Assembly: GCA_017409205.1 (NCBI GenBank)
Contig: JAFQTF010000026.1
Coordinates: 1,275 to 65,274 of the forward strand
Direction: 5' to 3'
Origin: Oscillospiraceae bacterium
GTDB lineage: Bacteria; Bacillota; Clostridia; Oscillospirales; Oscillospiraceae
Length of the DNA: 64,000 nucleotides
The position numbers and the translations under genes are program-made. Position 1 is the first letter of the stretch. Every line of letters starts with the position of its first letter. This document shows, piece by piece, positions 16,365 through 31,859 of the stretch. Under the pieces are notes generated by a model. It was given only the letters and a program-made list of their open reading frames with translations, was not told where the DNA came from and made no database searches.

Positions 16365-16506
16365 TTCGGCTTCCTCCTGTCAAAAATATACTATAAGCCA
16401 TTATTGCGACATATTATACCACCCTTCGACAAAGAAAACAAGTACAAAGCTGTTGCATTTTTCGTATTTTTATTTTATGATAGAGTGGTATAAGGAGGCG
16501 ATATCA

Positions 16507-19305
16507 TTGTCTGAACTGAAACTTGTCTCTCCTTTGCTGGACGGTTTTGTCATGGGCAACCCCATGAGTGATCACGACGGCATTCGCTGCTGTCCCGCCA
16601 TGAAGGAAAATACTGACGAGAAATATATTGTAAAAATCATCTCTGTGCCTGCATCTCAGGTACAGCTGGACGCGCTGCTGCTGACCGGAGCCTATAAGGA
16701 TCCTGCCGATGCCATGGATTATTTCAAGGATGTGGCAGACAGCATCGTTGCCGAAGTGGAACAGCTGAACACCCTTTCCAGGTTGGAAGGCTTCCTGCCC
16801 TATGAAGGCTGCCAGGTGGTTCCCATGGAGGACGGCAAGCTGGGCTACGAAGTCTATCTGCTGAGCCGGTACAGACGTTCCCTGCTGCGCTATATGCGCA
16901 AAAATCCTGTGACCCATCTGGAAGCTGTAAATCTGGGTCTTGATCTGTGTGCATCCCTTGCCATTGCACGGCGGGCAGGTTATCTCTATGTAGATCTGAA
17001 GCCGGCCAACATTTTCCTGACCAGGGACAAACAATACCGGATCGGTGATCTGGGCCTTATTCCCCTGGATTCTCTGACCTACACCTCCCTGCCCGGAAAA
17101 TTCCGCAGTCCCTACTCTCCCCCGGAGGCACTGGACGATCTGAAGACCCTGAACAAAACCGCAGATACTTATGCGGCAGGCATGATCCTCTATCAGATTT
17201 ACAATGAGGGCAGTCTTCCCGCTCCGCCGCTGGAACCGACGGATCCTTTCCCCCATCCTTCCAACGCCGATTACGAAATTTCTTCCATCATCATGAAGGC
17301 TCTGGATCCGGATCCCGGCAAACGCTGGGCGGACCCCATGGAGATGGGTCAGGCGCTGGTCGGCTATATGCAGCGCAATACCGTAAACAATACGCCTATC
17401 GTTCCCCCTTCCGGGATCCTGATCGCAGAGGATGCACCTGCCGCCTCTGCCCCGGGTACCATTCAGAATGCTGACAGCAATACAGAATCTGCGCCAACCG
17501 ATGCCGAAGCAGAAACCACTGTGGAAGCAGATACCATCGTCGAAGCAGAAGCTGCTGAAGCAGATGTTTCCGTGGAAGCTGAAGCTGAGACTGCTGCAGC
17601 AGAAGAAACGCAGAAGCCGCTCGTCCCCGCTGAACAGCCGGAGGATGAGGACGAAGATCTGGATTTCAGCATTGCCTTTACCGGCATTTCCGAGTCCGAA
17701 GAGGAAACTGTCGACGAGACACCGGAAATCCCTGCGACCAGACCTCTGCCTGTCCGCCGCAAGCCCAGAAGAGGCAAAGGCCTTCTGGGTCTGGCAGCTG
17801 CGCTGATGGTTCTGGCCTGCATCGGCTGCGGTGCTTTCTGGTTCTATCAGACCCAGTACCTGCAGACCATTGACAATCTGATCCTGGACGGTACACAGCA
17901 TGAGCTGACCGTTACAGTCGAGACGGATATGGATACCTCCCTGCTGCAGGTCACCTGTACCGATACATACGGCAACAGCACCTCCAGTCCTCTGGTAAAC
18001 GGACAGGCCGTTTTTACCGACCTGCTGCCTGACTCCCTGTACCGCATCGAGGTCACCGTGGATGGTTTCCATGCACTGGAAGGCAGAACGGCTGAGATCT
18101 TCACCACCGATGCTCTGAGCAATGTGGTCAGCATTTCTGCTGTCACCGGCCCCGAGGATGGCTCTGTCATGGTGAATTTCACGGTGGATGGTTCTGATCC
18201 CGAGGAATGGGTCATCACCTGCTCCGCCCCCGGAGAAGAGGACATCGTGCAGACCTTTACCGGTCACTCCGTCACCATCAAGGGACTGAGCGTGGGCAAG
18301 ATCTACACCTTGACCCTGGGTGCTTCCAACGGCGATCCCATTCTGGGTACCAATTCCGTGGAATTTTCTGCAACACAGCTGGTCATGGCCAAAAATCTGA
18401 CCATTTCCGACTATGTCGACGGTATGCTGACCGTTCGCTGGGATGCACCGGAAGATACTACTGTGGAACGCTGGACCGTTCGCTGCTACAATGATGACGG
18501 CCACGAGGAAACTCTGGAGATCAGTGATACGGAAATCACCTTCACCGGCATCGATGCAACCAAGGCTTACACTGTGGATGTTACGGCCCTTGGCATGACA
18601 GAACCCAGCCGGGTCAGCATCACGGCAAATCCCATTACTGTCACCACCTTCAATGTGGATGATTCGGATCTGGATCAGCTCACTGTCACCTGGGAGTTCG
18701 AAGGCTCCGCCCCCGAAGGCGGCTGGCTGCTGATGTACACAGTGGATGGTCTGGAGGAACAGACCAGTGTTGTGAAATGTCAGGAACCCTCTGCCGTCAT
18801 TGAAACCCGCATCCCCAGTGCAGCCTACCGCTTCACACTGCAGGCTGCGGACTCCACCTCCATTTTCAATCATGTGCATACCTACATCTGCCCCAAGGCC
18901 GAGGTCTTCAACAACCAGGGACTTTCCGCCAACAATGTATCTGCCTACCTTCTGAAGACACCGGAAGAAGAGGCATGGACCATTGACAGTGTGGGCGAGG
19001 ATGCCATCACCGATACCTTCCGGCCCGGCGACAGCATTTCCATGGTGCTGAAGGCCACCGACAATTTCTACCTCCCGGAGATGGATATCGAAGTCATGTA
19101 TGTCATCCGCAATGGCGATGGAAATGTTCTGACCAGATACATTTCCAGAGATACCATTGACTGGAAGCAGCTTTGGTATGACGATGATTACCACAACGGC
19201 GAACTGACCATCCCCAGTGTTCCTACCGAGCCCGGCAACTATTCTGTCAGTGTGTATTTTGACAATCTTGCCGTTACCGCCATCAATTTCTCCATTGTGG
19301 AATAG
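16507..19305 (+). CDS. Atypical Hanks-type Ser/Thr kinase-like membrane protein with extracellular FN3-like repeats
   Basis: TTG start after AAGGAGG; YIVK, YVDLKPANI, DLG, SPPE, D.YAAG kinase subdomains; TM helix; LTVRW..P / YTVDV FN3-like repeats. Confidence 0.8.
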   Translation: MSELKLVSPLLDGFVMGNPMSDHDGIRCCPAMKENTDEKYIVKIISVPASQVQLDALLLTGAYKDPADAMDYFKDVADSIVAEVEQLNTLSRLEGFLPYEGCQVVPMEDGKLGYEVYLLSRYRRSLLRYMRKNPVTHLEAVNLGLDLCASLAIARRAGYLYVDLKPANIFLTRDKQYRIGDLGLIPLDSLTYTSLPGKFRSPYSPPEALDDLKTLNKTADTYAAGMILYQIYNEGSLPAPPLEPTDPFPHPSNADYEISSIIMKALDPDPGKRWADPMEMGQALVGYMQRNTVNNTPIVPPSGILIAEDAPAASAPGTIQNADSNTESAPTDAEAETTVEADTIVEAEAAEADVSVEAEAETAAAEETQKPLVPAEQPEDEDEDLDFSIAFTGISESEEETVDETPEIPATRPLPVRRKPRRGKGLLGLAAALMVLACIGCGAFWFYQTQYLQTIDNLILDGTQHELTVTVETDMDTSLLQVTCTDTYGNSTSSPLVNGQAVFTDLLPDSLYRIEVTVDGFHALEGRTAEIFTTDALSNVVSISAVTGPEDGSVMVNFTVDGSDPEEWVITCSAPGEEDIVQTFTGHSVTIKGLSVGKIYTLTLGASNGDPILGTNSVEFSATQLVMAKNLTISDYVDGMLTVRWDAPEDTTVERWTVRCYNDDGHEETLEISDTEITFTGIDATKAYTVDVTALGMTEPSRVSITANPITVTTFNVDDSDLDQLTVTWEFEGSAPEGGWLLMYTVDGLEEQTSVVKCQEPSAVIETRIPSAAYRFTLQAADSTSIFNHVHTYICPKAEVFNNQGLSANNVSAYLLKTPEEEAWTIDSVGEDAITDTFRPGDSISMVLKATDNFYLPEMDIEVMYVIRNGDGNVLTRYISRDTIDWKQLWYDDDYHNGELTIPSVPTEPGNYSVSVYFDNLAVTAINFSIVE

Positions 19306-19451: not shown

Positions 19452-20003
19452 ATGCGCGGGAAAAGTCATATCTGTCTGGGACAATACCTGATAAAGCACT
19501 ACATGCCGGATCTGCCCCGGAAACATGAACAGGCCTTTCTGCTGGGCTGTATCGAACCGGACAGAAACCCGGCTACATACCTGAAAGGTTCTCTGCGATG
19601 CCAGTGGCTCCGCGGCCACAATTACCGGAACGCCCGCAGATTTATCCGGCGGATCTCCCTTCGGCTGGAAGGAAAGAGGCGGCTGAACACACTGGATTAT
19701 TACACCCTCGGCAAGCTGATCCATTATACAGCAGATGCCTTTACCTATGCCCACAATGCCGATTTTCCGGAAAGCCTGTCTGACCACCGGGAATATGAGG
19801 CTGCGCTGCAAACCTACTTTCTCCGGTTTATGCAGGATGATCCCCAGGTGGACATTGCCCTGACGGGCAGCATTATGGAAGGCATCTCCCGGTATCACCG
19901 GGAATACAGCCAGGAAGCAGGCAACATTCGCCGGGACTGCCGCTATGCCCTCCGGGCATGCTGCTGCGTGCTGGCATTGCTGATGACACCCAGGATCATT
20001 TAA
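19452..20003 (+). CDS. Zinc-dependent phospholipase C family protein
   Basis: N-terminal His, GCIEPD, H, HYTADAF..H, H..YE metal-ligand pattern. Confidence 0.78.
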   Translation: MRGKSHICLGQYLIKHYMPDLPRKHEQAFLLGCIEPDRNPATYLKGSLRCQWLRGHNYRNARRFIRRISLRLEGKRRLNTLDYYTLGKLIHYTADAFTYAHNADFPESLSDHREYEAALQTYFLRFMQDDPQVDIALTGSIMEGISRYHREYSQEAGNIRRDCRYALRACCCVLALLMTPRII

Positions 20004-20014
20004 GGGGGAACAAT

Positions 20015-20605
20015 ATGTATCGTCTGTTTCTCGCCGGGCTCGACGCAGCCGTTGCATCTATCCTTGTGATTCCTGTTTTTCTGATCCTGAACCGGTTTTA
20101 TTTTCACAACCGGAAGAAAACTGTTTTCTATACTGTCTTCGCCGTATATCTGGCAGGCGTATATCTGGTGGTGGGACTGCCCAGCGTGATCTACATTCGT
20201 TTTGAGCCCAATGTCAATCTCATTCCGTTTCTGGATATTTTCTCCAACCTGTCTGAAACGCTGCTTAATGTGATTCTGTTCCTTCCCCTCGGATTCCTTA
20301 CGACAGTACTGTGGAAACCCTTTCGCAATGCAAAGCAAAACATTCTGTTCGGTTTCTGCGTTTCCCTGGCGATTGAGATCCTTCAGATGTTCACCTTCCG
20401 TGCCACAGATGTTAACGATCTGATCACCAATACGCTGGGCAGCCTCATTGGCTGGTGCATAGGCAGTGTATTTTTAAAGCGCTTTCCCGGGACGTTATGT
20501 GATGGCAGAAAAGCAGATACCGCCATTGTTTTCAGTGCGGTTTTTGGCATCATGTTTTTCATCCATCCTTTTATCGCCCCACTGATCTGGGATCTATTTT
20601 ATTAA
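20015..20605 (+). CDS. VanZ family membrane protein
   Basis: NLIPF..NVILFLPLG..IEILQ..RATDVNDLITNTLG. Confidence 0.88.
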   Translation: MYRLFLAGLDAAVASILVIPVFLILNRFYFHNRKKTVFYTVFAVYLAGVYLVVGLPSVIYIRFEPNVNLIPFLDIFSNLSETLLNVILFLPLGFLTTVLWKPFRNAKQNILFGFCVSLAIEILQMFTFRATDVNDLITNTLGSLIGWCIGSVFLKRFPGTLCDGRKADTAIVFSAVFGIMFFIHPFIAPLIWDLFY

Positions 20606-20639
20606 AAACAAGCGGTATCTAATGATACCGCTTGTTTTT
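20604..20639. terminator. Bidirectional intrinsic terminator
   Basis: aaaaacaagcggtatc-taat-gataccgcttgttttt. Confidence 0.85.
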
Positions 20640-22779
20640 ATGTCAGATAGGTGATTTTTGCCGCGGAGCCGAAGGTCCTGGGGGTGTGGATGCTGTCAAA
20701 CTGAACGATGATCCCATCGCAGCCTCTGGGGATACCGATGACACTGCCCTCGCCGAACACAGGATGCAGGATTCGCTTTCCTACAGCCTCATTGGGACGG
20801 GCTGCAGACGCATCCATGGTTTCCGTTTTCCGGATCTGCTCCATGGCCCGTTCTTCCAGCTCCGGATCCAGAGGCACGGCATATTCCACATTTTCCTTTT
20901 CCGCGTTGAACAGAAACCGGCTGGGATACCGAAAAGAACCGTCATAATTGCTGCCCGCCGCATCGGAAAGAAACAGCCGGTCCTGCGCACGGGTAAAGGC
21001 CACATAGCAGAGCCTGCGTTCCTCCTCCAGCTTTTCCCGGGTATTGGCCCGTTTCCCGGGGAATATGCCTTCAGAAAGCCCGCAGAGAAATACGGTGGGG
21101 AACTCCAGACCCTTGGCCGCATGAACGGTCATCAGTTTCACCGCCTCTGCTCTGGCGGTCTGGTCCATATTGGTAAACAGGGCCGCATGATCCAGATAAT
21201 TGCCCAGAGTAACCTCTTCTCCGGCTTTCCGCTGAAAATCATAGATGGCCTGCTTCAGCTCCGCCAGGTTGTCCAGCCGCTCCTCCTCGCCGCAGCTGCG
21301 GAGCATTTCCTCGTAGCCGCTCTCGCTGAGCACCCCGGCCAGCAGATCCGTCAGATCCATTCCATCGAAAATGGCCCGGTATTTTTCGATAAGCCGGACA
21401 TACTCCTTCGCACGGCTCCTCTGAAACAGTCTGGTGTCCAGACTGGCAGCCAGTGCGTCATACAAACTGCACCGGTGCAGCGCAGCATATTCCTTCAGCG
21501 CCGCAATCCGGGTACGTCCCACCCCCCGGCGGGGTTCATTCACTGTCCGCAGAAAGCTGATGTCATCTCCGGCGTAGATCATCCGCAGATAGCACAGAAC
21601 ATCCTTGATTTCCTTCCGTTTATAAAACTCCACACCGGAATACAGCACATAGGGGATCCTGTTCCGGATCAGAGACTCCTCCACCGTACGGGAAACATAA
21701 TGCGCCCGGTACAAAACTGCCATGGAAGACCAGCTTCTGCCGCCATCATGGAGAGCGCGCATATTGGCTGTCATCCAGTCCGCTTCCAGCTGTCCGGTTC
21801 TGGCGTGGAAATACAGGGGCTTCCGGGCATCGGGCCGTACTGCTGTCAGCTCCTTTTTCAGCCGCTGACGGTTTTTGTCGATGAGGGCATTGGAAGCCTT
21901 CAGGATCTGGGGTGCAGAACGGTAGTTGGTATTGAGGTAAATCGTTTTCACATTTTCATGGCGGCTGTCAAATTCCAGAATAAATTTCACATCCGCACCC
22001 CGCCAGGTATAAATAGTCTGGTCAGGATCGCCAACCACAAAAAGATTTTTATGATAGCCGGACAGGATATCCGCCAGAGCATACTGGTCTTTGTCAATAT
22101 CCTGAAATTCATCCACCATTACATATTCCAGCCGCTGCTGCCATTTTTCCCGGGTGTCCCTGTCCTGCTGGAGAATATACAGTACAAAATAGACCAGATC
22201 GTCAAAATCCAGCCCATAGCACTTCCGCTGCTCATAGAAATAACGGTACATCACCTTGTCCTTCAGCGTTGTAGCCTCTTCGGACAGCCGCAGCAGCTTT
22301 TCCGGCGCCCCGATCAGGTTCTTGACATACCCCCGGCCACCCTTGCGCCAGCCGATATGATCCACTGCATCCTTCACCGTCATATCCCGGCTGGTGATGC
22401 CCAGATCCTCAAATACCGTGCGCAGCATGGCTTCCTTATCCTCTTCATCCAGGACGATAAAAGTGGAGGGATACTGCACAACATGGCAGTCCTCTTTCAG
22501 CAGTCCCACGCAAAAGCCATGAAATGTGGTGATGCGGCCCAGATCCTGATCCGGCAGAGAACTGCGGATCCGTTTCTTCATCTCTGCCGCTGCTTTGTTG
22601 GTAAAGGTGACACAGAGGATATTGGCAGTGGAAATCCCCAGCTGCTCCACAAGATACAGATACCGGGCTGTCAGTGTTTTCGTTTTTCCGGAGCCGGCCC
22701 CGGCCACCACACGAACATACCCTTCTGTAGTGGTGGCCGCCTCCCGCTGCTGTGTATTCAGCTGCTGCAAATACTCCAT
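20638..22779 (-). CDS. UvrD/PcrA-family ATP-dependent DNA helicase
   Basis: AGAGSGKT, TFTNKAA, VDEFQD, GDPDQ, NYRS, HAAKGLEF, EERRL.YVA.TRA; GGAGG RBS before ATG 22779. Confidence 0.93.
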   Translation of the reverse strand: MEYLQQLNTQQREAATTTEGYVRVVAGAGSGKTKTLTARYLYLVEQLGISTANILCVTFTNKAAAEMKKRIRSSLPDQDLGRITTFHGFCVGLLKEDCHVVQYPSTFIVLDEEDKEAMLRTVFEDLGITSRDMTVKDAVDHIGWRKGGRGYVKNLIGAPEKLLRLSEEATTLKDKVMYRYFYEQRKCYGLDFDDLVYFVLYILQQDRDTREKWQQRLEYVMVDEFQDIDKDQYALADILSGYHKNLFVVGDPDQTIYTWRGADVKFILEFDSRHENVKTIYLNTNYRSAPQILKASNALIDKNRQRLKKELTAVRPDARKPLYFHARTGQLEADWMTANMRALHDGGRSWSSMAVLYRAHYVSRTVEESLIRNRIPYVLYSGVEFYKRKEIKDVLCYLRMIYAGDDISFLRTVNEPRRGVGRTRIAALKEYAALHRCSLYDALAASLDTRLFQRSRAKEYVRLIEKYRAIFDGMDLTDLLAGVLSESGYEEMLRSCGEEERLDNLAELKQAIYDFQRKAGEEVTLGNYLDHAALFTNMDQTARAEAVKLMTVHAAKGLEFPTVFLCGLSEGIFPGKRANTREKLEEERRLCYVAFTRAQDRLFLSDAAGSNYDGSFRYPSRFLFNAEKENVEYAVPLDPELEERAMEQIRKTETMDASAARPNEAVGKRILHPVFGEGSVIGIPRGCDGIIVQFDSIHTPRTFGSAAKITYLT

Positions 22780-22908
22780 AACCAAACCTCCCGTTTGAGA
22801 TATCCGAATCATATCAACTATTACGTCCAATAAACCGGGTATAAACTATTTGCGCATATTGTTTTTCTGTAGTAATATAACAAAAACCGTTTACAAGGAG
22901 GCTATGCC

Positions 22909-23682
22909 ATGTTTGACCAGCTGATTCACGAGCTTTCTGCTGTTCCGGAAATCGAAGCCATTGCTCTCGGCGGCTCCCGTGCGTCTTCCACTCACGACGC
23001 CAGATCTGACTATGATGTATATCTCTACTGCACCGGGCCAATCCACAGGGATGTTCGCCAAAAAATTCTGGAGAAATATTGCTGTTATATGGAGATCGGA
23101 AACCATTTCTGGGAACCGGAAGATGATTGTACACTGAAAAACGGAATCGACATTGACATCCTCTACCGCGATCTGGAGGGTTTTGTCCGGGATGTGGCAT
23201 CTGTCGTGGAGGAATTTCAGGCCAGAACCGGATACACCACCTGTATGTGGCATAACCTGAAAACCTGCAAAATCCTGTATGACCGCAATGGCAGACTACA
23301 GACTGCAAAGCAGCGCTTTGACATCCCCTATCCCCCCGCCCTGAAAGATTCCATCATTTCCAAAAACACAAAGCTTCTTCATGGAATGCTCCCCTCCTAT
23401 GACGGTCAGATCCGCAAAGCCGCCCAGCGGCAGGATCTTGTCAGCGTCAATCACCGGGTAGCCGCCTTTCTGGAATCCTACTTTGATGTTTTGTTTGCCC
23501 TGAACGAAGTGACACATCCCGGTGAAAAACGGCTGATGAAGCTTTGCCGTCAGATGTGCCCGATCCTGCCGGAACACTTCGAAGAGAATCTCCAGCAGCT
23601 GTTTTCCCACATGTTCCGGGATTCGGACGCTCTTTCCGAGGATTTGTCTGCCATTCTCGTAGAGCTGGAAAAAATTCTCTGA
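22909..23682 (+). CDS. Nucleotidyltransferase-fold protein (DUF4037-like)
   Basis: LGGSRA...SDYD nucleotidyltransferase motif; HPGEKR C-terminal pattern. Confidence 0.75.
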   Translation: MFDQLIHELSAVPEIEAIALGGSRASSTHDARSDYDVYLYCTGPIHRDVRQKILEKYCCYMEIGNHFWEPEDDCTLKNGIDIDILYRDLEGFVRDVASVVEEFQARTGYTTCMWHNLKTCKILYDRNGRLQTAKQRFDIPYPPALKDSIISKNTKLLHGMLPSYDGQIRKAAQRQDLVSVNHRVAAFLESYFDVLFALNEVTHPGEKRLMKLCRQMCPILPEHFEENLQQLFSHMFRDSDALSEDLSAILVELEKIL

Positions 23683-23697: not shown

Positions 23698-23726
23698 TTG
23701 CAATATTCCACCCCACGTGGTATAAT
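23698..23726 (+). promoter_or_regulatory. SigmaA promoter of the aro operon leader
   Basis: TTGCAA-17-TATAAT with extended -10 TG. Confidence 0.8.
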
Positions 23727-23757
23727 GTCCGCAGCTACCGAACAAGGAGTCTTTCTC

Positions 23758-23826
23758 ATGACCAAGATGAGCACTGCTGCACAGTTCTACTTTGGCTACT
23801 ATTACTTTTTTAACCACAAAAAGTAA
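23758..23826 (+). CDS. Phe/Tyr-rich attenuator leader peptide MTKMSTAAQFYFGYYYFFNHKK (not in ORF track)
   Basis: AAGGAG RBS; 8 of 9 consecutive codons are Phe/Tyr; lies between the promoter and a terminator upstream of Phe/Tyr biosynthesis genes. Confidence 0.85.
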   Translation: MTKMSTAAQFYFGYYYFFNHKK

Positions 23827-23875
23827 TAGCAATTTGTGCTGCAGCCAGATTCGAAAGCTACAAAAGCATTTTCAG

Positions 23876-23910
23876 ACGCCGCACGAATTGACCGTGCGGC
23901 GTTATTTTTT
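23876..23910 (+). terminator. Attenuator terminator upstream of aroF
   Basis: acgccgcacg-aattgac-cgtgcggcgt followed by tatttttt, just before the aroF RBS. Confidence 0.85.
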
Positions 23911-23924
23911 CAGGAGATGATGTT

Positions 23925-24926
23925 ATGATCGCAGTATTGAAGCAGGGCACTACCACCGCCCAGACCCAGCACCTTGTGGCATGGCTGAAGAATATGAACC
24001 TGGACGTCCATATTTCCGAAGGCCAGCATGTTACCGTCCTCGGCCTCATCGGTGACACCAGCCGGGTGGATATGGATCTGCTGAAAAGCCTGGATATGGT
24101 AGAGACTGTCAAACGGGTCTCTGAGCCCTTCAAGCAGGCAAACCGGAAATTCCACCCCAAGGATACCATCATCGAGATCGGTGACATCCGTATTGGCGGC
24201 GGTTATTTTACCATCATTGCAGGCCCCTGCTCCGTGGAATCCGAAGAGCAGATCATCGAAGTGGCCCAGGCTGTCAAGGCCTCCGGCGCACACATCCTCC
24301 GGGGCGGCGCCTTCAAGCCCCGTACCTCCCCCTATGCCTTCCAGGGCATGAAGGGCGCCGGTATCGAACTGCTGCTGAAGGCCAGAGCCGCCACGGGCCT
24401 TCCCATCGTGACGGAGATCATGAACATCTCCACCCTGGATCTGTTTGCGGATGTGGATATCATTCAGGTGGGCGCCCGGAATATGCAGAACTTTGACCTG
24501 CTGAAGGAGCTGGGCAAGACTCAAAAGCCCATCCTTCTGAAGCGGGGACTTGCCAATACGCTGCAGGAACTGCTGATGAGCGCAGAATACATCATGAGCG
24601 AAGGCAATGAAAACATCATCCTCTGCGAGCGGGGTATTCGCACCTTTGAAACCTACACCCGGAACACCCTTGATCTTTCCGCTGTCACAGCGCTGCATGA
24701 GCTGTCCCATCTGCCTGTTGTGGTGGATCCCAGCCATGCCACCGGCAAGGCAAAGATGGTCTCCCCCATGGCCTGTGCCGCCACCGCCGCCGGTGCCGAT
24801 GGCATCATGATCGAAGTTCACAACAATCCTTCCTGCGCCCTCTGCGACGGCGCCCAGTCTCTGACGCCTCAGCAGTTTGATGAGGTCTGCCACAGAGTCA
24901 GAAAGATCCGTGAGGCCATCGTATGA
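23925..24926 (+). CDS. aroF: DAHP synthase (class I beta, N-terminal regulatory domain)
   Basis: IAGPCSVES, GGAFKPRTSPY, IQVGARNMQN, LKRG, DPSH. Confidence 0.96.
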   Translation: MIAVLKQGTTTAQTQHLVAWLKNMNLDVHISEGQHVTVLGLIGDTSRVDMDLLKSLDMVETVKRVSEPFKQANRKFHPKDTIIEIGDIRIGGGYFTIIAGPCSVESEEQIIEVAQAVKASGAHILRGGAFKPRTSPYAFQGMKGAGIELLLKARAATGLPIVTEIMNISTLDLFADVDIIQVGARNMQNFDLLKELGKTQKPILLKRGLANTLQELLMSAEYIMSEGNENIILCERGIRTFETYTRNTLDLSAVTALHELSHLPVVVDPSHATGKAKMVSPMACAATAAGADGIMIEVHNNPSCALCDGAQSLTPQQFDEVCHRVRKIREAIV

Positions 24927-25753
24927 CAGTTGGTATTCTCGGTCTCGGCCTCATCGGCGGTTCTCTTGCCAGAGCTTATGCCCTGGAGGGTCACACCGTA
25001 TATGCAGCAGAAAAAGATGACAGCATGCTGTCCTTTGCCATTCTGGCAGGTGCCGTCCACGGAAAGCTGGATGCAGATACCATCCCCGGATGTGACCTGA
25101 TCCTGCTGGCCATTTATCCCGACGGCAGCGCCTCCTGGCTGGAAGAAAATGCACCGCTGGTTTCCCCTTCTGCTCTGGTGCTGGACTGCTGCGGCATCAA
25201 ACAGGAGATCTGCCACCGGTGTTTCCCACTGGCGGAACACTACGGTTTTACCTTCGTTGGCGGCCATCCCATGGCCGGTTCTCAATTCTCCGGCTTCAAG
25301 TACAGCCGGGCAAACCTCTTTGACGGCGCCCCCATGGTGCTGGTGCCCCCGGTATTTGACAACATCGATCTTCTGGAGCGGGTGAAGCAAGCCATGGTGC
25401 CCTGTCACTTCGGCTCCTTCTCCGTGACCACTGCAGAGGATCACGACAAGAAAATCGCCTTTACCTCCCAGATGGCCCATATCGTCAGCAATGCCTACGT
25501 CAAATCCCCCACTGCGCTGGAACACAAGGGTTTCTCCGCCGGCAGCTACCGGGATTTGACCAGAGTTGCCTGGCTGAATCCTCAGATGTGGGCAGAGCTG
25601 TTTCTGGAGAACAGGGAAAATGTTTTGTTTGAACTGGAGCATTTCATCGGCAGCCTCACCGCTTATCGGGATGCCGTAGCCGCCGGCGATATGGCGGAGC
25701 TGGTTTCCCTGCTGGAAGAAGGCAAACAACGCAAGGAGGCGATAGACGGATGA
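24923..25753 (+). CDS. tyrA: Prephenate dehydrogenase
   Basis: GLGLIGGS Rossmann motif, GGHPMAG, HD, S.RDLTRVA. Confidence 0.93.
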   Translation: MTVGILGLGLIGGSLARAYALEGHTVYAAEKDDSMLSFAILAGAVHGKLDADTIPGCDLILLAIYPDGSASWLEENAPLVSPSALVLDCCGIKQEICHRCFPLAEHYGFTFVGGHPMAGSQFSGFKYSRANLFDGAPMVLVPPVFDNIDLLERVKQAMVPCHFGSFSVTTAEDHDKKIAFTSQMAHIVSNAYVKSPTALEHKGFSAGSYRDLTRVAWLNPQMWAELFLENRENVLFELEHFIGSLTAYRDAVAAGDMAELVSLLEEGKQRKEAIDG

Positions 25754-26784
25754 AAACCGTCACAGTCCGCGCATCCAAAACCTATGATATTCTCATCGGA
25801 AGCAATCTTCTGGCTTCCCTGGGCGTGGAGGCAAAAAAACTGGGAAAGGCCAAAAAGGTCTGCATCGTCTCAGAAACCAACGTCTGGCCCCTGTACGGCA
25901 TAGCTGCACAGGAAAGTCTGGAGGCAGCCGGCTTCGATACCGTCACTTTCGTTTTTCCCGCAGGGGAAGCCTCCAAAAACGGTATTACCTATCTGGAACT
26001 GCTGAATTTTCTTGCGGAAAGCCAGCTGACCCGCAGCGATCTCATCGTTGCTCTGGGTGGCGGCGTTGTGGGCGATCTGGCAGGCTTTGCCGCTGCCAGC
26101 TATCTGCGGGGCATCCGGTTTATTCAGGTTCCCACCACCCTGCTGGCCGCTGTGGATTCTTCCGTGGGTGGTAAAACTGCCATTGATCTTCCTGCCGGCA
26201 AAAACCTGGCTGGCGCCTTCTGCCAGCCCAGCCTGGTGCTGTGCGACACCGATACCCTCAACACCCTTTCCCGGGATGTTTTCCGGGACGGCTGTGCAGA
26301 GGTCATCAAATACGGTATCCTCTATGATCCCGACCTCTTCCGTCATCTGGAAGTCCGGGGTCCGGACTTCCACCGGGAGGCTGTTATAACCCGGTGCGTG
26401 GAGCTGAAGCGGGATGTGGTGATGGAAGATGAATTTGACACCGGTGCAAGAATGAAGCTGAACCTTGGCCACACCATCGGTCACGGCGTCGAAGCTAAAA
26501 GTAATTTCTCTGTCTCCCATGGCAAGGCTGTTGCCATCGGTACCGCCATCGTCAGCCGGGCATCCGGCTGTTGCGATGCAGAACGGATCCTGTCTGTTCT
26601 GCGGCAGTTCGATCTTCCCACGGACACGGAATATTCTGCTTCCGACCTGTATCGCTATACACTCTCTGACAAAAAACGCTCCGGCGGCACTGTTTCTCTG
26701 ATTATCCCCGAAAAAATCGGTCTTTGCCACATTGTCCCCACACCTGTGGAGCAGCTTTTATTCTTTATCGAGGCAGGTCTTTGA
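25750..26784 (+). CDS. aroB: 3-dehydroquinate synthase
   Basis: ALGGGVVGDLAGF, PTTLLA.VDSSVGGKT, LNLGHTIGH. Confidence 0.96.
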   Translation: MKTVTVRASKTYDILIGSNLLASLGVEAKKLGKAKKVCIVSETNVWPLYGIAAQESLEAAGFDTVTFVFPAGEASKNGITYLELLNFLAESQLTRSDLIVALGGGVVGDLAGFAAASYLRGIRFIQVPTTLLAAVDSSVGGKTAIDLPAGKNLAGAFCQPSLVLCDTDTLNTLSRDVFRDGCAEVIKYGILYDPDLFRHLEVRGPDFHREAVITRCVELKRDVVMEDEFDTGARMKLNLGHTIGHGVEAKSNFSVSHGKAVAIGTAIVSRASGCCDAERILSVLRQFDLPTDTEYSASDLYRYTLSDKKRSGGTVSLIIPEKIGLCHIVPTPVEQLLFFIEAGL

Positions 26785-26785
26785 T

Positions 26786-27982
26786 ATGGACATTACCATT
26801 CAGCCCCGAACTCTTCGGGGTGATATCGCCATCATTCCCTCCAAATCCCAGGCTCACCGGCTGCTGATCTGCGCTGCATTTTCAGACAAACCTACCCAGC
26901 TTCGGTGCTGTGAAACCAGTCGCGACATGGATGCCACAGCGGACTGCCTCCGGGCTCTGGGCGCGGAGATCCTCCGGACGGAAACCGGATACACAGTTCT
27001 CCCCACAACAGCTATCCCCAAGAAAGCAGTGCTGAACTGCTGTGAAAGCGGGTCTACCCTGCGGTTTATGCTTCCCGTTGCGGGCGCTCTTGGTGTGGAT
27101 GCAACCTTTCTGATGGAGGGCAGGCTTCCCCAACGCCCTCTTTCCCCACTGTGGGAAGAAATGGAGCGGATGGGCTGTACCCTGACCCGTCCCACAGAGT
27201 CTATACTCCAATGCCGCGGCAAGCTTCAGCAGGGTGCCTATTTTATCGACGGCAGTGTTTCCAGTCAGTTCATTACAGGTCTTCTGCTGGCGCTTTCCCT
27301 TATGGATGGGGAAAGCAGTCTGAATATCACAGGCAAAGTGGAATCCAGACCCTATATTGATCTGACCCGGCAGGTAATTGTCCTGTTTGGTGCCGATCCG
27401 GATCACCCCGGAACTGCCAGATTCCGATCTCCCGGCTATATTACCGTGGAAGGCGACTGGAGCAATGGTGCCTTCTTTCTGGCCGCCGATTATCTGGATA
27501 TTGACCCCGGACTGACCATTCACGGCCTGAATGAAAAGTCTGTTCAGGGTGACCGGGCAGCAGCCCACTGGATTCCACGGTTATGCAACGAAAACTGCAC
27601 CATCGATGCTGCGGATATTCCGGATTTGGTGCCCATTTTGTCGGTTACCGCCGCTGCAAAGCAGGGTGCAGTCTTTACCAATATCCGGCGTCTGCGGATC
27701 AAGGAATCCGACCGGGTTGCTTCCACCATCGCCATGATTCAAAATCTGGGCGGCAGAGCGGAAGCCACAGAGGATACCCTGACCATCTACGGAACCGGTC
27801 TTGTCGGCGGTACTGTGGATGCCGTGAATGACCACCGGATTGCCATGTCTGCTGCCATCGCATCTACCGTTTGCAGGAAACCTGTTACCATACTGGGCGC
27901 AGAATGCGTCAAAAAATCCTACCCCAAGTTCTGGGAAGAATTTTCCCGGTTAGGAGGAACCTATGAGCAGTACCTACGGTGA
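26786..27982 (+). CDS. aroA: 3-phosphoshikimate 1-carboxyvinyltransferase
   Basis: SKSQAHR, ESGSTLRF, SSQFITG, LRIKESDR, DHRIAM, KSYP. Confidence 0.95.
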   Translation: MDITIQPRTLRGDIAIIPSKSQAHRLLICAAFSDKPTQLRCCETSRDMDATADCLRALGAEILRTETGYTVLPTTAIPKKAVLNCCESGSTLRFMLPVAGALGVDATFLMEGRLPQRPLSPLWEEMERMGCTLTRPTESILQCRGKLQQGAYFIDGSVSSQFITGLLLALSLMDGESSLNITGKVESRPYIDLTRQVIVLFGADPDHPGTARFRSPGYITVEGDWSNGAFFLAADYLDIDPGLTIHGLNEKSVQGDRAAAHWIPRLCNENCTIDAADIPDLVPILSVTAAAKQGAVFTNIRRLRIKESDRVASTIAMIQNLGGRAEATEDTLTIYGTGLVGGTVDAVNDHRIAMSAAIASTVCRKPVTILGAECVKKSYPKFWEEFSRLGGTYEQYLR

Positions 27983-29054
27983 AAATTTAAAACTCTCTAT
28001 TTTTGGCCAGTCCCATGGCCCCGCCATCGGTATGGTCCTGGACGGTATTCCCGCAGGCCTGCCTGTAGATCCTGACAAGCTTCAGGAATTTCTGAACCGC
28101 CGGGCACCTGGTCAGAACAACTGGTCCACCCCCCGCCGGGAAGAGGACCGGCCCGAATTTTTAGGGGGTATTCTGGACGGCTACACCTGCGGCGCCCCCA
28201 TCGCCGCCATGATCCGCAACAAAAATACCCGTTCCGGAGACTATGAGAATCTCAAAGACTGTCCCCGGCCCGGACACGCCGACTATACCGCACAGGTCAA
28301 ATACGGTGGTTTTCAGGATGCCGCCGGCGGCGGTCACTTCTCCGGCCGGCTGACGGCTCCCCTGTGCATCGCAGGCGGACTGTGCAAACAGTGGCTCGAA
28401 GAATCAGGTATCCGCATCGGTGCAAAACTCCATTCTATCGGTACCGTAGGGGATGATGAATTTGATATGGTCCGTCCTCAACTGGATCAGCTGGATCCTG
28501 CCTTCCCGGTGCTGAATCAGAAAGCCGGGGAACAGATGAAAGATGTGATTCAATATGCAAAGGATCAGGGAGACAGTGTAGGCGGTATGATCACCTGTGC
28601 AATTACCGGACTGCCTGCAGGTCTGGGCGAACCCATGTTTGGCGGCGTGGAGAGTAAAATCGCACAGATCGTCTATGGTATTCCGGCTGTAAAAGAAGTC
28701 TCCTTTGGCTCCGGTTCCTATTGCTCGTTGATGTACGGAAGCCAAATCAACGACTGCTTTACCATGGAAAACGGAGAAATCCGTACACTGACAAATCACT
28801 GCGGCGGTATTCAGGGCGGCATCACCAATGGCATGCCCGTGGTCTTTACCGTAGCATTCAAGCCCACCCCCTCTGTTTCCCTTCCCCAGCAGAGCGTATC
28901 CCTTTCCAGGGGTGAGAACGCAACGCTGGAGATCAGAGGACGACACGATCCCTGCATCGTTCCCAGGGCCGTTCCCGTGGTGGAGGCAGCCGCAGCCATC
29001 GCCATCTACGACCTGATCCTCGGCAATACCCAGACTGACAGGAGGAAGCCATAA
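27963..29054 (+). CDS. aroC: Chorismate synthase
   Basis: FGQSHG, RPGHAD, GGITNGMP, KPTPS, GRHDPC. Confidence 0.96.
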   Translation: MSSTYGENLKLSIFGQSHGPAIGMVLDGIPAGLPVDPDKLQEFLNRRAPGQNNWSTPRREEDRPEFLGGILDGYTCGAPIAAMIRNKNTRSGDYENLKDCPRPGHADYTAQVKYGGFQDAAGGGHFSGRLTAPLCIAGGLCKQWLEESGIRIGAKLHSIGTVGDDEFDMVRPQLDQLDPAFPVLNQKAGEQMKDVIQYAKDQGDSVGGMITCAITGLPAGLGEPMFGGVESKIAQIVYGIPAVKEVSFGSGSYCSLMYGSQINDCFTMENGEIRTLTNHCGGIQGGITNGMPVVFTVAFKPTPSVSLPQQSVSLSRGENATLEIRGRHDPCIVPRAVPVVEAAAAIAIYDLILGNTQTDRRKP

Positions 29055-30196
29055 TGGATTTGACCCAGATCCGCAATGAGATTGACAGCATCGACGATCA
29101 GCTGGTTCAGCTGTTCTGCAAGCGAATGGAGCTGTCATCTCAGGTAGCTCAGTATAAAAAAGCCAATAATCTGCCCATCTTCGTTCCTGCCCGGGAGCGG
29201 GCTATTCTGCAGAAGGTGGCTGAAAATGCCGGCCCCGAAATGGCAAACTACACCCGGGTGCTTTACTCCATGCTGTTTGAGCTGAGCCGCAGCTATCAAA
29301 GCAAGCTGAACGATGCGCCCAGCCACCTGTATCAGGAGATCTCCGAGGCCATTGAGAACACCCCCAGACTGTTTCCCCAGGCGCCAATGGTGGCCTGCCA
29401 GGGTGTGGAGGGTGCTTACTCCCAGATCGCCTGCGAAAAGATCTTCAAGAATCCCTTTATCCTGTATTTCAAGAATTTTGAGGGTGTTTTCACCGCTATT
29501 GAGCAAGGCATGTGTCAGTATGGCATCCTGCCCATTGAAAACTCCACTGCCGGTTCCGTGAACAAGGTCTATGACCTGATGATCAGCCATAATTTTTCCA
29601 TCGTCCGGACCTTCCGGCTGAAGGTGGATCACAATCTTCTGGCCAAACCCGGCACAAAACTCAGTGATATCAAAACCATTTATTCCCATGAACAGGCCAT
29701 CAACCAGTGTGCCGGCTTTCTGCACACCCTTACCGGCGTCAATGTGATCCCCGTTGCCAATACCGCGCTGGCATCGGAAATGGTGTCCAAATCCGAAAGC
29801 AGGGATGTGGCCGCCCTTTCCAGCCGGTTCTGTGCTGATCTTTACGGCCTGCAGTGTCTGGCTTCCTCGGTTCAGGATGCCGGCAACAACCACACCCGGT
29901 TCATCTGCATCAGCCGGAAGCTGGAGATTTATCCCGGCTCTGACAAAACCAGCATCATGATGATCCTGCCCCACAAGCCCGGCGCCCTGTATAAGGTGCT
30001 GGCCCGGATGTATACCCTGGGAATCAACGTGATCAAGCTGGAATCCCGTCCCCTGCCCGACCGGGATTTTGAATTCATGTTCTATTTCGATCTGGAGACC
30101 TCCATCTATTCCGAGGAATTCATTCAGCTGATGTGCGAGCTGGAGGATCTTTGCGAAGAATTCAAATATCTGGGCAGCTACACCGAGGTGGTCTGA
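29054..30196 (+). CDS. pheA: Bifunctional chorismate mutase / prephenate dehydratase
   Basis: N-terminal CM (R.EIDSID), PIENST, NHTRF, C-terminal ACT domain (KLESRP). Confidence 0.93.
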   Translation: MDLTQIRNEIDSIDDQLVQLFCKRMELSSQVAQYKKANNLPIFVPARERAILQKVAENAGPEMANYTRVLYSMLFELSRSYQSKLNDAPSHLYQEISEAIENTPRLFPQAPMVACQGVEGAYSQIACEKIFKNPFILYFKNFEGVFTAIEQGMCQYGILPIENSTAGSVNKVYDLMISHNFSIVRTFRLKVDHNLLAKPGTKLSDIKTIYSHEQAINQCAGFLHTLTGVNVIPVANTALASEMVSKSESRDVAALSSRFCADLYGLQCLASSVQDAGNNHTRFICISRKLEIYPGSDKTSIMMILPHKPGALYKVLARMYTLGINVIKLESRPLPDRDFEFMFYFDLETSIYSEEFIQLMCELEDLCEEFKYLGSYTEVV

Positions 30197-31422
30197 TGAA
30201 ATGCGGTTTACTGGGCAGAAAACTGGGCCACAGCTATTCCCCCCAGATCCATGCCTGCCTTGGATCATACGACTATACCCTCTTTGAGAAGGAGCCGGAG
30301 GAACTGGAAGCATTCCTGAAAGACGGGGATTTCACCGGCATCAATGTGACCATCCCCTACAAAAAGGCGGTTATCCCCTATTTGTCTGAACTGTCGCGCC
30401 GTGCAAGAGCGCTGGGCGCAGTCAATACCATCGTCCGCAGGCCGGACGGCAGCCTCATCGGCCACAACACTGACTTTTTTGGCTTTGAAATGATGATTCG
30501 CCGCAGTGGCATCTCCGCCGCAGGAAAAAAAGCGTTGGTGCTGGGAAGCGGCGGCGCATCCAATACTGCGGCAGCTGTTCTGGAAGAACTGGGCGCGAGG
30601 ACAGTCGTTGTCTCCCGCAGTGGAGAAAATAACTATGAAAATATCCATCTCCACAGTGATGCCGCCCTGATCGTCAATGCCACACCGCTGGGAATGTTCC
30701 CGGATACCGGTGTCAGTCCGGTGGATCTGCGTCTTTTCCCCCATCTGGAAGGGGTGCTGGATCTGATCTACAATCCCGCCCGGACGAAGCTGCTGCAGGA
30801 TGCGCAAAGCCGCGGCATCACCGCCATGAACGGCCTTCTGATGCTGGTAGCCCAGGCAAAGGAAGCTGCAGAATGGTTTACAGGCGGATCCATTTCTGAT
30901 TCCGTCATTGACACCATTCACCAGCGTCTTTCCGGACAGATGCAGAATATTGTACTGATTGGTATGCCGGGCTGCGGAAAAAGCACCATTGGCGCCCTGC
31001 TGGCAGAGAAAACCGGCAGAAGATTTGTGGATGCAGACGAGACCATCGTTTCCCTGGCAGGGATGTCCATTCCGGAGATCTTCGCCAAAGACGGTGAGGA
31101 AACTTTTCGCCGATGGGAAACAGAGGCTCTGAAGCAGTTGGGCAACCGCTCCGGTCTGGTGATTGCCACTGGCGGCGGCTGCATTACCCGGGAATGGAAC
31201 TACCCGCTGCTGCATCAGAACGGTATCATTTTCTGGCTGAAGCGGGAACTGTCCTGCCTGCCTACAGACGGCCGTCCGCTGTCCCAGACCAATTCACTCA
31301 CTGACCTTTATGCCGCACGGCAGCCGCTGTATCTTGCTTTTTCCGACCATGTCATCGACAACAACGGCAGCTGTCCGGATACTGTACAGTCCATTCTTTC
31401 TATTCTGGAGGGAACAAAATGA
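30196..31422 (+). CDS. aroE: Shikimate dehydrogenase - shikimate kinase fusion
   Basis: HSYSP, NVTIPYK, AVNT, NTD, GSGGA, followed by AroK domain (GMPGCGKST, ATGGG, RPL). Confidence 0.92.
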   Translation: MKCGLLGRKLGHSYSPQIHACLGSYDYTLFEKEPEELEAFLKDGDFTGINVTIPYKKAVIPYLSELSRRARALGAVNTIVRRPDGSLIGHNTDFFGFEMMIRRSGISAAGKKALVLGSGGASNTAAAVLEELGARTVVVSRSGENNYENIHLHSDAALIVNATPLGMFPDTGVSPVDLRLFPHLEGVLDLIYNPARTKLLQDAQSRGITAMNGLLMLVAQAKEAAEWFTGGSISDSVIDTIHQRLSGQMQNIVLIGMPGCGKSTIGALLAEKTGRRFVDADETIVSLAGMSIPEIFAKDGEETFRRWETEALKQLGNRSGLVIATGGGCITREWNYPLLHQNGIIFWLKRELSCLPTDGRPLSQTNSLTDLYAARQPLYLAFSDHVIDNNGSCPDTVQSILSILEGTK

Positions 31423-31859
31423 AAATTCTGGTGATCAACGGTCCCAATATCAATATGCTGGGCATCCGGGAGCCGGGTATTTACGGAAAAAACACCTTTG
31501 CGGATCTGCTGCAGCTGCTGCAGGACACCGCAAAGGCGCTGAATATTGAAGTGGAACAGTACCAGAGCAATCACGAAGGCGACATCGTGGACAAGATCCA
31601 GTGGGCCTACGGCAAAGTGGATGGCATCGTCATCAATCCTGCTGCCTACACCCACACCAGTGTGGCCATTCTGGATGCACTGAAATCCGTATCCATCCCT
31701 GCTGTGGAGGTCCATATTTCCGATGTGGACAGCCGAGAGGCCTTCCGGCAGATCTCCTATGCCGGCCTCGCCTGCTGTAAGACCATCAAGGGCCATGGCC
31801 TTGACGGCTACCGGGAGGCCATTGTGTACCTGGATCAGCTTCTGAATCACAAAATCTGA
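31419..31859 (+). CDS. aroQ: Type II 3-dehydroquinate dehydratase
   Basis: NGPNINMLG.REP..YG, QSNHEG, NPAAYTHTS, EVHIS. Confidence 0.96.
   Translation: MKILVINGPNINMLGIREPGIYGKNTFADLLQLLQDTAKALNIEVEQYQSNHEGDIVDKIQWAYGKVDGIVINPAAYTHTSVAILDALKSVSIPAVEVHISDVDSREAFRQISYAGLACCKTIKGHGLDGYREAIVYLDQLLNHKI

What the first reader, a model, noticed from the sequence alone, without database searches (positions are those of the whole stretch)
23698..23924. Ribosome-dependent Phe/Tyr attenuator controlling the whole shikimate-Phe-Tyr operon in a Firmicute
Seen in sequence: a sigmaA promoter (23698-23726), an RBS, the 22-aa leader MTKMSTAAQFYFGYYYFFNHKK (4 Phe and 4 Tyr within 9 codons), a GC-rich terminator with U tract (23876-23910), then aroF. 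A perfect 12-bp inverted repeat (ctattacttttt 23799-23810 / aaaaagtaatag 23818-23829) overlaps the control codons. The segment ttgtgctgc (23834-23842) is partly complementary both to the leader (gctgcacag, 23776-23784) and to the terminator 5' arm (gccgcacga, 23878-23886), which gives alternative structures. The leader has no Trp codon, matching an operon with pheA and tyrA but no trp genes. Established: leader-peptide attenuation is classic in enterobacteria (trpL, pheL), whereas Firmicutes mostly use T-boxes or TRAP; no T-box motif is visible here. Inference: a dual Phe/Tyr-sensing attenuator.
Basis: partly seen in the sequence, partly recalled or inferred. Interest (0 to 1): 0.8.

Follow-up and report, generated by a model that had tools for sequence, protein, structure and literature searches.

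The report
Phe/Tyr leader-peptide attenuator before aroF
A 22-codon mini-gene packed with phenylalanine and tyrosine codons, followed by a predicted transcription stop hairpin and a predicted competing RNA pairing, sits in front of the genes that make those two amino acids and likely switches them on when ribosomes stall for lack of them: a textbook kind of switch, in a conserved family of gut Clostridia whose sensing codons appear to track the genes it precedes.

Summary
Observation confirmed at every coordinate. The element is real: 85 of 108 related aroF loci carry a Phe/Tyr-rich leader plus terminator, against 5 of 1,220 upstream regions in this genome. The F/Y run is in frame with the SD-linked ATG in 103 of 105 testable copies. 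Terminator, protector and antiterminator helices all show compensatory changes. Rfam gives no hit, although this genome has 10 T-box matches elsewhere. Best reading: a classical ribosome-mediated transcription attenuator, about 0.9; sensing both amino acids, about 0.75. No expression data. One refinement: the 12-bp repeat does not itself block the antiterminator here; an outer helix and the ribosome at the stop codon do. The kind is known: Corynebacterium aroR, Acholeplasma uORFC-13-1 (both before aroF), Listeria Rli60. This scan already found it in at least 22 other genomes. Added here: copies also precede tyrA, pheA, paaK-like, trpB2 and transporter genes, and Trp codons appear in 7 of 7 trpB2-linked leaders against 6 of 117 others (kin not independent). 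Verdict: new member of a known kind, interest 0.38.

The parts
23698..23726 (+). sigmaA-type promoter-like site, TTGCAA-17-TATAAT with extended -10 TG (start site not mapped)
   Evidence: a TTGACA-like box at like distance is visible in most relatives
23744..23749 (+). Shine-Dalgarno AAGGAG of the leader ORF, 8 nt before ATG
   Evidence: SD-linked ATG in frame in 103 of 105 testable copies
23758..23826 (+). 22-codon leader ORF, MTKMSTAAQFYFGYYYFFNHKK
23785..23811 (+). control codons 10-18, FYFGYYYFF (4 Phe, 4 Tyr)
23774..23784 (+). 5' strand of predicted outer protector helix P1 (pairs with 23834-23844; competes with the antiterminator)
23799..23829 (+). inner protector hairpin P2, 12 bp (23799-23810 with 23818-23829), holding control codons and the stop codon
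   Evidence: 88.6% of cells paired, 8 of 12 pairs with two-sided change
23830..23842 (+). 5' strand of predicted antiterminator (pairs with 23878-23890, the terminator 5' arm and loop)
23875..23910 (+). intrinsic terminator-like hairpin (stem 23875-23903) and U tract (23905-23910)
   Evidence: 97.1% paired, 8 of 9 pairs with two-sided change
23925..24926 (+). aroF, DAHP synthase (PRK08673 and TIGR01361 above cut-off)
24923..25753 (+). tyrA-like prephenate dehydrogenase (best matches, below curated cut-offs)
25750..26784 (+). aroB, 3-dehydroquinate synthase
26732..27982 (+). aroA-like EPSP synthase (start uncertain; 258 bits against cut-off 287)
27963..29054 (+). aroC, chorismate synthase
29054..30196 (+). 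pheA-like chorismate mutase / prephenate dehydratase
30196..31422 (+). aroE-aroK fusion (shikimate dehydrogenase plus kinase domains)
31419..31859 (+). aroQ, type II dehydroquinate dehydratase

Best explanation
The element is most likely a classical ribosome-mediated transcription attenuator that would let the aroF-to-aroQ operon be transcribed only when charged Phe- or Tyr-tRNA runs short. Shown in sequence: promoter-like site, SD, 22-codon ORF with eight Phe/Tyr codons, three complementary pairings, and their conservation with compensatory changes. Inferred: with both amino acids plentiful the ribosome runs to the stop codon (23824-23826), covers the start of the antiterminator strand 6 nt further on, and the terminator forms; when either is short the ribosome stalls on codons 10-18, occupies the 5' strands of the protector and leaves 23830-23842 free to pair with 23878-23890 before the terminator's 3' arm is made, so polymerase reads through; with no ribosome the protector P1+P2 folds first and probably favours termination. 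Attenuation as such about 0.9; response to both amino acids about 0.75.
For: Leader plus terminator in 85 of 108 aroF loci, against 5 of 1,220 control regions. All 82 non-duplicate leaders contain both Phe and Tyr (they were picked for at least 5 F/Y/W in 10 codons, not for holding both). Frame-blind test: 103 of 105 in frame over 11 different spacings, 21-54 nt. Antiterminator helix on an alignment not fitted to it: 76.1% of cells paired, 45 two-sided changes against 18.0 +/- 3.1 in shuffles (0 of 500), slid controls 29-54%. Alignment-free: own-partner duplex mean -15.2 kcal/mol, shuffled -9.1, foreign terminator -12.2; own beats the foreign mean in 70 of 82. Geometry: last control codon to antiterminator median 18 nt (at least 10 in 77 of 82); stop codon at most 12 nt before the strand, or beyond it, in 79 of 82. 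Masked folding: in the window P(antiterminator) 0.81-1.0 with a ribosome on codons 1-20 and 0-0.39 at the stop; over 82 copies mean paired fraction 0.24 with no ribosome, 0.61 stalled mid-run, 0.05 at the stop or over the strand. One P2 pair swaps with a Tyr-to-Phe codon change: A-U 34, U-A 16, U-G 11, unpaired 8. Cargo is always aromatic-related or a transporter.
Against: No expression, start-site or 3'-end data; the two RNA runs found were contigs of relatives and say nothing. At equilibrium the full-length leader always forms the terminator (P 0.99 under every mask), so the model needs co-transcriptional folding, which was only approximated. On the truncated window transcript the antiterminator also wins with no ribosome (P 1.0); the off-default rests on P1 forming first (P 0.83-0.96 for 3' ends 23845-23880) and on a rough direct-path barrier of about 16 kcal/mol. 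In 23 of 82 copies the stalled state did not reach 0.5, and own-partner duplexes ranked in the top tenth in only 29 of 82; some of these are mis-called terminators (L018, L086, L098). The collapse at the stop is partly built in by the mask. One antiterminator position is unpaired in 60 of 69 sequences, and 'pairs with change on both sides' did not beat shuffles (125 of 500). Related genomes are not independent.
Confidence: 0.75

Rival explanations
1. It is a ribosome-mediated attenuator, but in practice answers to only one amino acid (most likely Phe); the other codons are there because U-rich Tyr and Phe codons both suit the hairpin.
For: The Corynebacterium aroR leader holds Phe-Tyr-Phe yet transcription answers to Phe and not Tyr (review passage, PMC11802643). 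Tyr and Phe codons differ by one base and both pair with the A-rich strand.
Against: Three consecutive Tyr codons here and 308 Tyr against 281 Phe in the control windows of 82 leaders. The mix shifts with cargo: Phe share 0.71 before pheA (4 copies), 0.83 before paaK-like genes (2), 0.31 before tyrA (2), 0.47 before aroF (99), which suggests each codon type is read.
Confidence: 0.16
2. An RNA-binding protein (TRAP- or PyrR-like in logic) binds the UAY/UUY repeats and sets the terminator; the ORF is incidental.
For: The nucleotide core of P2 is strongly conserved and TAC/TTT codons dominate.
Against: The run is in frame with an SD-linked ATG in 103 of 105 copies at 11 spacings; Trp codons enter where trpB2 follows. 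Neither is expected of a protein site.
Confidence: 0.03
3. The leader senses general translation slowdown or a nascent-peptide stall (drug or metabolite) and not tRNA charging.
For: Such leaders are common in Firmicutes (search listings; not read in full). The aromatic peptide is hydrophobic.
Against: The peptide sequence outside the F/Y run is not conserved and length runs 14-37 aa; every cargo gene is aromatic-related or a transporter.
Confidence: 0.04
4. A degenerate T-box, or a chance U-rich ORF in front of a terminator that ends the upstream gene.
For: Rfam can miss diverged T-boxes (PMC5314783 passage). The upstream gene 22909-23682 has no strong terminator of its own before the promoter.
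Against: No T-box match even at E <= 10 while 10 are found elsewhere in this genome; the conserved antiterminator strand is not the T-box consensus (recalled as UGGNACC); upstream genes differ among relatives while the element stays; 1 of 1,220 control regions is as aromatic-rich.
Confidence: 0.02

Closest known systems
uORFC-13-1 motif (Brewer et al. 2021, PMC8632094; passages read; its one held supplement searched, no match; figure not seen)
   Same: Predicted uORF before aroF with -35/-10, RBS, start codon, U-rich Phe-coding run, one more helix and an intrinsic terminator; attenuation proposed, not tested in the passages read.
   Different: Reported only from Acholeplasma and unassigned environmental sequences (24 copies, only before aroF) and read as Phe-sensing. 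The present family is centred on Clostridia, carries both Phe and Tyr runs and has other cargo. Homology untested: the alignment was not held, and the 10 small-genome lineages I checked all have mraY, so are not wall-less.
Corynebacterium glutamicum aroR-aroF attenuator (Neshat et al. 2014, seen only as summarised in PMC11802643; leader noted in PMC4046766 passages)
   Same: Leader peptide with Phe and Tyr codons before the DAHP synthase gene; ribosome stalling raises transcription.
   Different: Actinobacterial; only Phe-Tyr-Phe; answers to Phe, not Tyr.
Enterobacterial pheL-pheA and trpL attenuators (PMC3082878 abstract; PMC11802643 passage; four-segment model recalled)
   Same: Same logic: control codons, protector, antiterminator, terminator.
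   Different: No Rfam match to any family; single amino acid; controls pheA alone, whereas this one precedes the whole shikimate-Phe-Tyr cluster.
Firmicute amino-acid leader attenuators: Listeria Rli60 (PMC5864092 abstract), His leaders of Bacillus cereus group, Peptostreptococcaceae and Erysipelotrichales (PMC9413887, PMC2965389 passages), Streptococcus leuA leader (PMC5314783 passages), Lactococcus leu/phe leader RF01743 (table row in PMC2864571)
   Same: Ribosome-mediated attenuation of amino-acid genes within the same phylum; Rli60 has experimental support.
   Different: Other amino acids and operons; no Rfam match of this element to RF01743 or any other model.

Membership tests
Ribosome-mediated (leader-peptide) transcription attenuator | Short ORF with ribosome-binding site in the 5' leader | tested here: met
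   in frame 103 of 105
Ribosome-mediated (leader-peptide) transcription attenuator | Tandem codons for the products of the downstream pathway | tested here: met
   4 Phe + 4 Tyr in 9 codons before aro, tyrA-like and pheA-like genes; unique among 1,220 regions
Ribosome-mediated (leader-peptide) transcription attenuator | Intrinsic terminator between leader and first gene | tested here: met
   (predicted structure with covariation; termination itself not measured)
Ribosome-mediated (leader-peptide) transcription attenuator | Antiterminator that excludes the terminator | tested here: met
Ribosome-mediated (leader-peptide) transcription attenuator | Protector that excludes the antiterminator without a stalled ribosome | tested here: inconclusive
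   P1+P2 forms first but is about equal in energy to P2+antiterminator in the window; across 82 copies the unmasked mean is 0.24 against 0.61 stalled
Ribosome-mediated (leader-peptide) transcription attenuator | Read-through depends on leader translation and amino-acid supply | not testable with these tools
   needs reporter or Term-seq; runs X1, X2 uninformative
T-box riboswitch (RF00230) | Match to the T-box model (stem I, T-box antiterminator bulge) | tested here: not met
   positive control of 10 matches elsewhere in this genome
Rfam leader families (Phe leader, Trp leader, leu/phe leader RF01743) | Match to the covariance model | tested here: not met
   no match at gathering score or at E <= 10; the names other than RF01743 and RF00513 are recalled
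uORFC-13-1 (Acholeplasma aroF) | Promoter, RBS, start, Phe-coding U run and terminator before aroF | tested here: met
   description
uORFC-13-1 (Acholeplasma aroF) | Sequence and structure match to the published consensus | not testable with these tools
   alignment and figure not held; no wall-less genome among 10 checked
Corynebacterium aroR | Sequence homology and Phe-only response | not tested
   no aroR sequence was fetched; response needs experiment

The most novel reading that the evidence does not exclude
This is one portable RNA cassette, spread through Clostridia and into other classes of the phylum, that forms an uncatalogued aromatic amino-acid regulon and is retuned to its cargo by changing a few codons: Trp before trpB2, mostly Phe before pheA and paaK-like ligases, mostly Tyr before tyrA, both before whole aro operons. 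If so the leader codons read out the substrates of unassigned genes: the TrpX-like ABC transporters behind it would carry Tyr/Phe, and the paaK-like ligases and sodium symporters would serve Phe (and Trp) salvage from phenylacetate-type acids and not their breakdown.
Probability: 0.5. Interest if true: 0.58.

Novelty: new member of a known kind. Interest (0 to 1): 0.38.

Why it matters
It fills a gap in how gut and rumen Clostridia control aromatic amino-acid supply, which feeds microbial aromatic metabolites; this genome uses T-boxes elsewhere but a leader peptide here. It gives a clean natural test of whether one leader can act as an OR gate for two amino acids, which failed in the one tested precedent (aroR). 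If codon content tracks cargo, the family becomes a tool to assign substrates to transporters and ligases. The mechanism itself would not surprise a specialist, and the scan has met this family many times.

Tried and rejected
T-box or other Rfam family: no match. Second copy in this genome: only the one site with model R1. trp genes in this genome: trpB and chorismate-binding families not found, but the assembly is 76.6% complete and 115 of 151 family genomes have a trpB-like match, so absence is not shown; the lack of Trp codons fits the operon, not necessarily the genome. RNA evidence: two metatranscriptome runs of one study held 5-7% of sampled words; laid contigs were of relatives and cannot show ends or levels. 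Equilibrium folding of the full leader never shows the antiterminator; consensus folding returned only P2 and the terminator. Test against uORFC-13-1 failed for lack of its alignment and of a wall-less genome among 10 candidates. Model R1 at phylum level: 6 of 151 genomes, of which 3 were false on inspection (L177-L179), and 1 of 30 order loci was false (L140); R1 is insensitive to distant copies. Thirteen of the 82 leaders were left out of alignment A1 as divergent or mis-bounded, so searches cover 69 of 82.

Full report
Observation. All features are present at the stated places: promoter-like site 23698-23726, SD 23744-23749, leader ORF 23758-23826 with FYFGYYYFF at 23785-23811, 12-bp repeat 23799-23810 / 23818-23829, terminator stem 23875-23903 with U tract, then aroF at 23925 and an eight-ORF cluster to aroQ at 31859. 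The leader folds at z = -4.2. Rfam has no match in the window and only a chance terminator match at E <= 10, while the T-box model finds 10 sites elsewhere in this genome, before metN-, ileS-, thrS-, metG-, leuA- and trpX-like genes among others. The nearest named aroF relatives (81-87% identity) are Oscillospiraceae and Faecousia bins, so the host is likely of that family.

Chance. Of 1,220 upstream regions in this genome, 12 pass a loose leader filter, 5 with a terminator, and only this one has 7 or more aromatic codons in 10. The same filter passes 85 of 108 aroF loci, each with a terminator. Those loci are the 30 best of the family search and the 80 best of 601; 2 were too short, 3 pairs are duplicates, one is this locus. 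Of the 23 that failed, 9 show an F/Y-rich ORF by eye. An unbiased count with model R1 gave 67 of 151 genomes in the family, 31 of 151 in the order, 25 of 151 in the class and 6 of 151 in the phylum (own genome included; 28 family hits were training rows; 3 phylum hits and 1 order hit were false). Of 20 aroF loci hand-picked from other classes for high similarity or small genome size, 18 have an F/Y-rich leader by eye (the terminator of L196 is doubtful) and 8 match R1 at E < 1e-4.

Translation. Anchoring on the hairpin core and choosing the SD-linked ATG without regard to frame, 103 of 105 testable copies are in frame, over 11 spacings from 21 to 54 nt; of 201 regions given, 92 lacked the anchor and 4 an SD-ATG. 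All 82 non-duplicate leaders hold both Phe and Tyr; 5 hold Trp.

Structure. On a MAFFT alignment of 69 of the 82, P2 is 88.6% and the terminator 97.1% paired, with two-sided changes in 16 of 21 pairs. The antiterminator (23830-23842 with 23878-23890) is 76.1% paired with 45 two-sided cells against 18.0 +/- 3.1; four of five measures beat nearly all shuffles, one did not (125 of 500), and one position is a conserved mismatch. Without alignment, own-partner duplexes average -15.2 kcal/mol against -9.1 shuffled and -12.2 with foreign terminators. The last control codon lies a median 18 nt before the antiterminator and the stop codon at most 12 nt before it, or beyond it, in 79 of 82: the spacing a stalled and a finishing ribosome would need.

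Mechanism. In the window, a transcript cut before the terminator's 3' arm forms the antiterminator with a ribosome anywhere on codons 1-20 and loses it at the stop. P2 does not overlap the antiterminator here; the outer helix P1 does, and the two states are about equal in energy (-21.2 and -23.0). P1+P2 dominates while the 3' end is at 23845-23880, with a rough barrier of 16 kcal/mol to refold, so the no-ribosome state is probably off but this is the weakest step. Over 82 copies the antiterminator fraction is 0.24 unmasked, 0.61 stalled mid-run, 0.05 at the stop; 59 of 82 exceed 0.5 when stalled. Full-length equilibrium always gives the terminator. No RNA data bear on it.

Cargo and codons. 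All 74 family hits were read: 59 precede aroF, 3 a sodium symporter, 3 a TrpX-like ABC binding protein, 2 pheA, 2 a paaK-like ligase, 2 trpB2, 2 aroB, 1 has no leader. Order and class hits add tyrA (2), TrpX-like (4), pheA (2), trpB2 (3). Trp lies in the control window in 4 of 4 trpB2-linked family copies against 2 of 69 others, and in 3 of 3 against 4 of 48 at order and class level. Two of the four have trpB2 as the last gene of a same-strand cluster 3.6-5.8 kb away. One of the two family exceptions (L026) is a wrong start choice; L005 is a true exception. For order and class hits only about 1.5 kb downstream was seen, so further trp genes were not excluded. The Trp copies look alike and may share one origin. 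Phe share is 0.47 before aroF (99), 0.71 before pheA (4), 0.83 before paaK-like (2), 0.31 before tyrA (2), 0.35 before TrpX-like (7) (groups small, compared after the fact; L156 before pheA goes against the trend at 0.375).

What is known. Six literature searches found no description of this Clostridia family, in a library that lacks most subscription papers; unseen supplements of Brewer 2021 and of attenuator surveys could hold it. They did find uORFC-13-1 before Acholeplasma aroF (PMC8632094, passages), the Corynebacterium aroR leader (PMC4046766 passages; PMC11802643 passages; original not read), His, Leu and branched-chain leaders in Firmicutes (PMC2965389, PMC9413887, PMC5314783 passages; PMC5864092 abstract and outline), the Lactococcus leu/phe leader (PMC2864571 one table row) and pheL (PMC3082878 abstract and outline). 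The scan's index lists 22 findings with these words in at least 22 genomes and 5 look-alike windows; these are unchecked notes and not support.

Verdict. Real, conserved, works most likely like trpL/pheL; files as a new member of the leader-peptide attenuator kind, not a T-box and not in Rfam; relation to uORFC-13-1 open. Interest 0.38; the retuned-regulon reading would merit about 0.58 and stands at about even odds.

Noticed in passing
L079, L084, L099, L100, L109 (upstream of aroF); L175 (upstream of pheA): The leader ATG lies 6-7 nt after a -10-like hexamer with no SD: candidate leaderless attenuator peptides in Clostridia (read by eye). Only L084 matches R1 strongly among the five aroF ones.
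   Followed up: partly
L076, L083, L096, L103, L107, L108 (between -10 box and aroF): These aroF genes, three of them from records named Ruminococcus or Ruminococcaceae-type, lack the leader and instead carry two to four tandem TAAAAGC-like repeats right after the promoter: possibly a different, protein-based regulator.
   Followed up: no
L080 (Lentisphaerae), L090 and L110 (Kiritimatiellia), upstream of aroF: F/Y-rich short ORFs with terminator-like hairpins occur outside the phylum but give no R1 match at E <= 1: same design, homology not shown.
   Followed up: partly
L057 (record labelled Alloprevotella): Leader region nearly identical to L026 from the window's own family on a 3.7-kb contig; likely a mis-binned contig.
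   Followed up: no
L200, L203, L204, L206, L208, L210: The attenuator precedes sodium:solute symporters and phenylacetate-CoA ligase-like genes (below curated cut-off), in two cases with trpB2; hints at salvage of aromatic acids into amino acids. Phenylacetate use for Phe synthesis by rumen anaerobes is recalled, from no call.
   Followed up: partly
L148 (G000:C23) against L119, L125, L161, L165, L201, L205, L207: A TrpX-like ABC binding protein sits behind a T-box in this genome but behind the Phe/Tyr leader in relatives: a swap of sensing systems, or different paralogues.
   Followed up: no
L213 (G021:C158): An R1 hit that keeps antiterminator strand and terminator but has no F/Y leader and no clear gene behind it: a decayed copy.
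   Followed up: no
window 22909-23682 (+): 257-aa nucleotidyltransferase-like ORF (weak Polbeta and DUF4037 matches) ends 16 nt before the promoter with no strong terminator, so its read-through would also meet the attenuator.
   Followed up: partly
window 16330-19305, 19452-20003, 19958-20605 (+), 20638-22830 (-): Kinase-like plus fibronectin III membrane protein, Zn-dependent phospholipase C-type domain protein, VanZ-like protein and a PcrA/UvrD-like helicase. Ordinary neighbours, unrelated to the element.
   Followed up: no
window 23803-23814: The control run ends in six T followed by A, a possible slippery stretch; frameshifting in pheL was judged incidental (PMC3082878 abstract).
   Followed up: no
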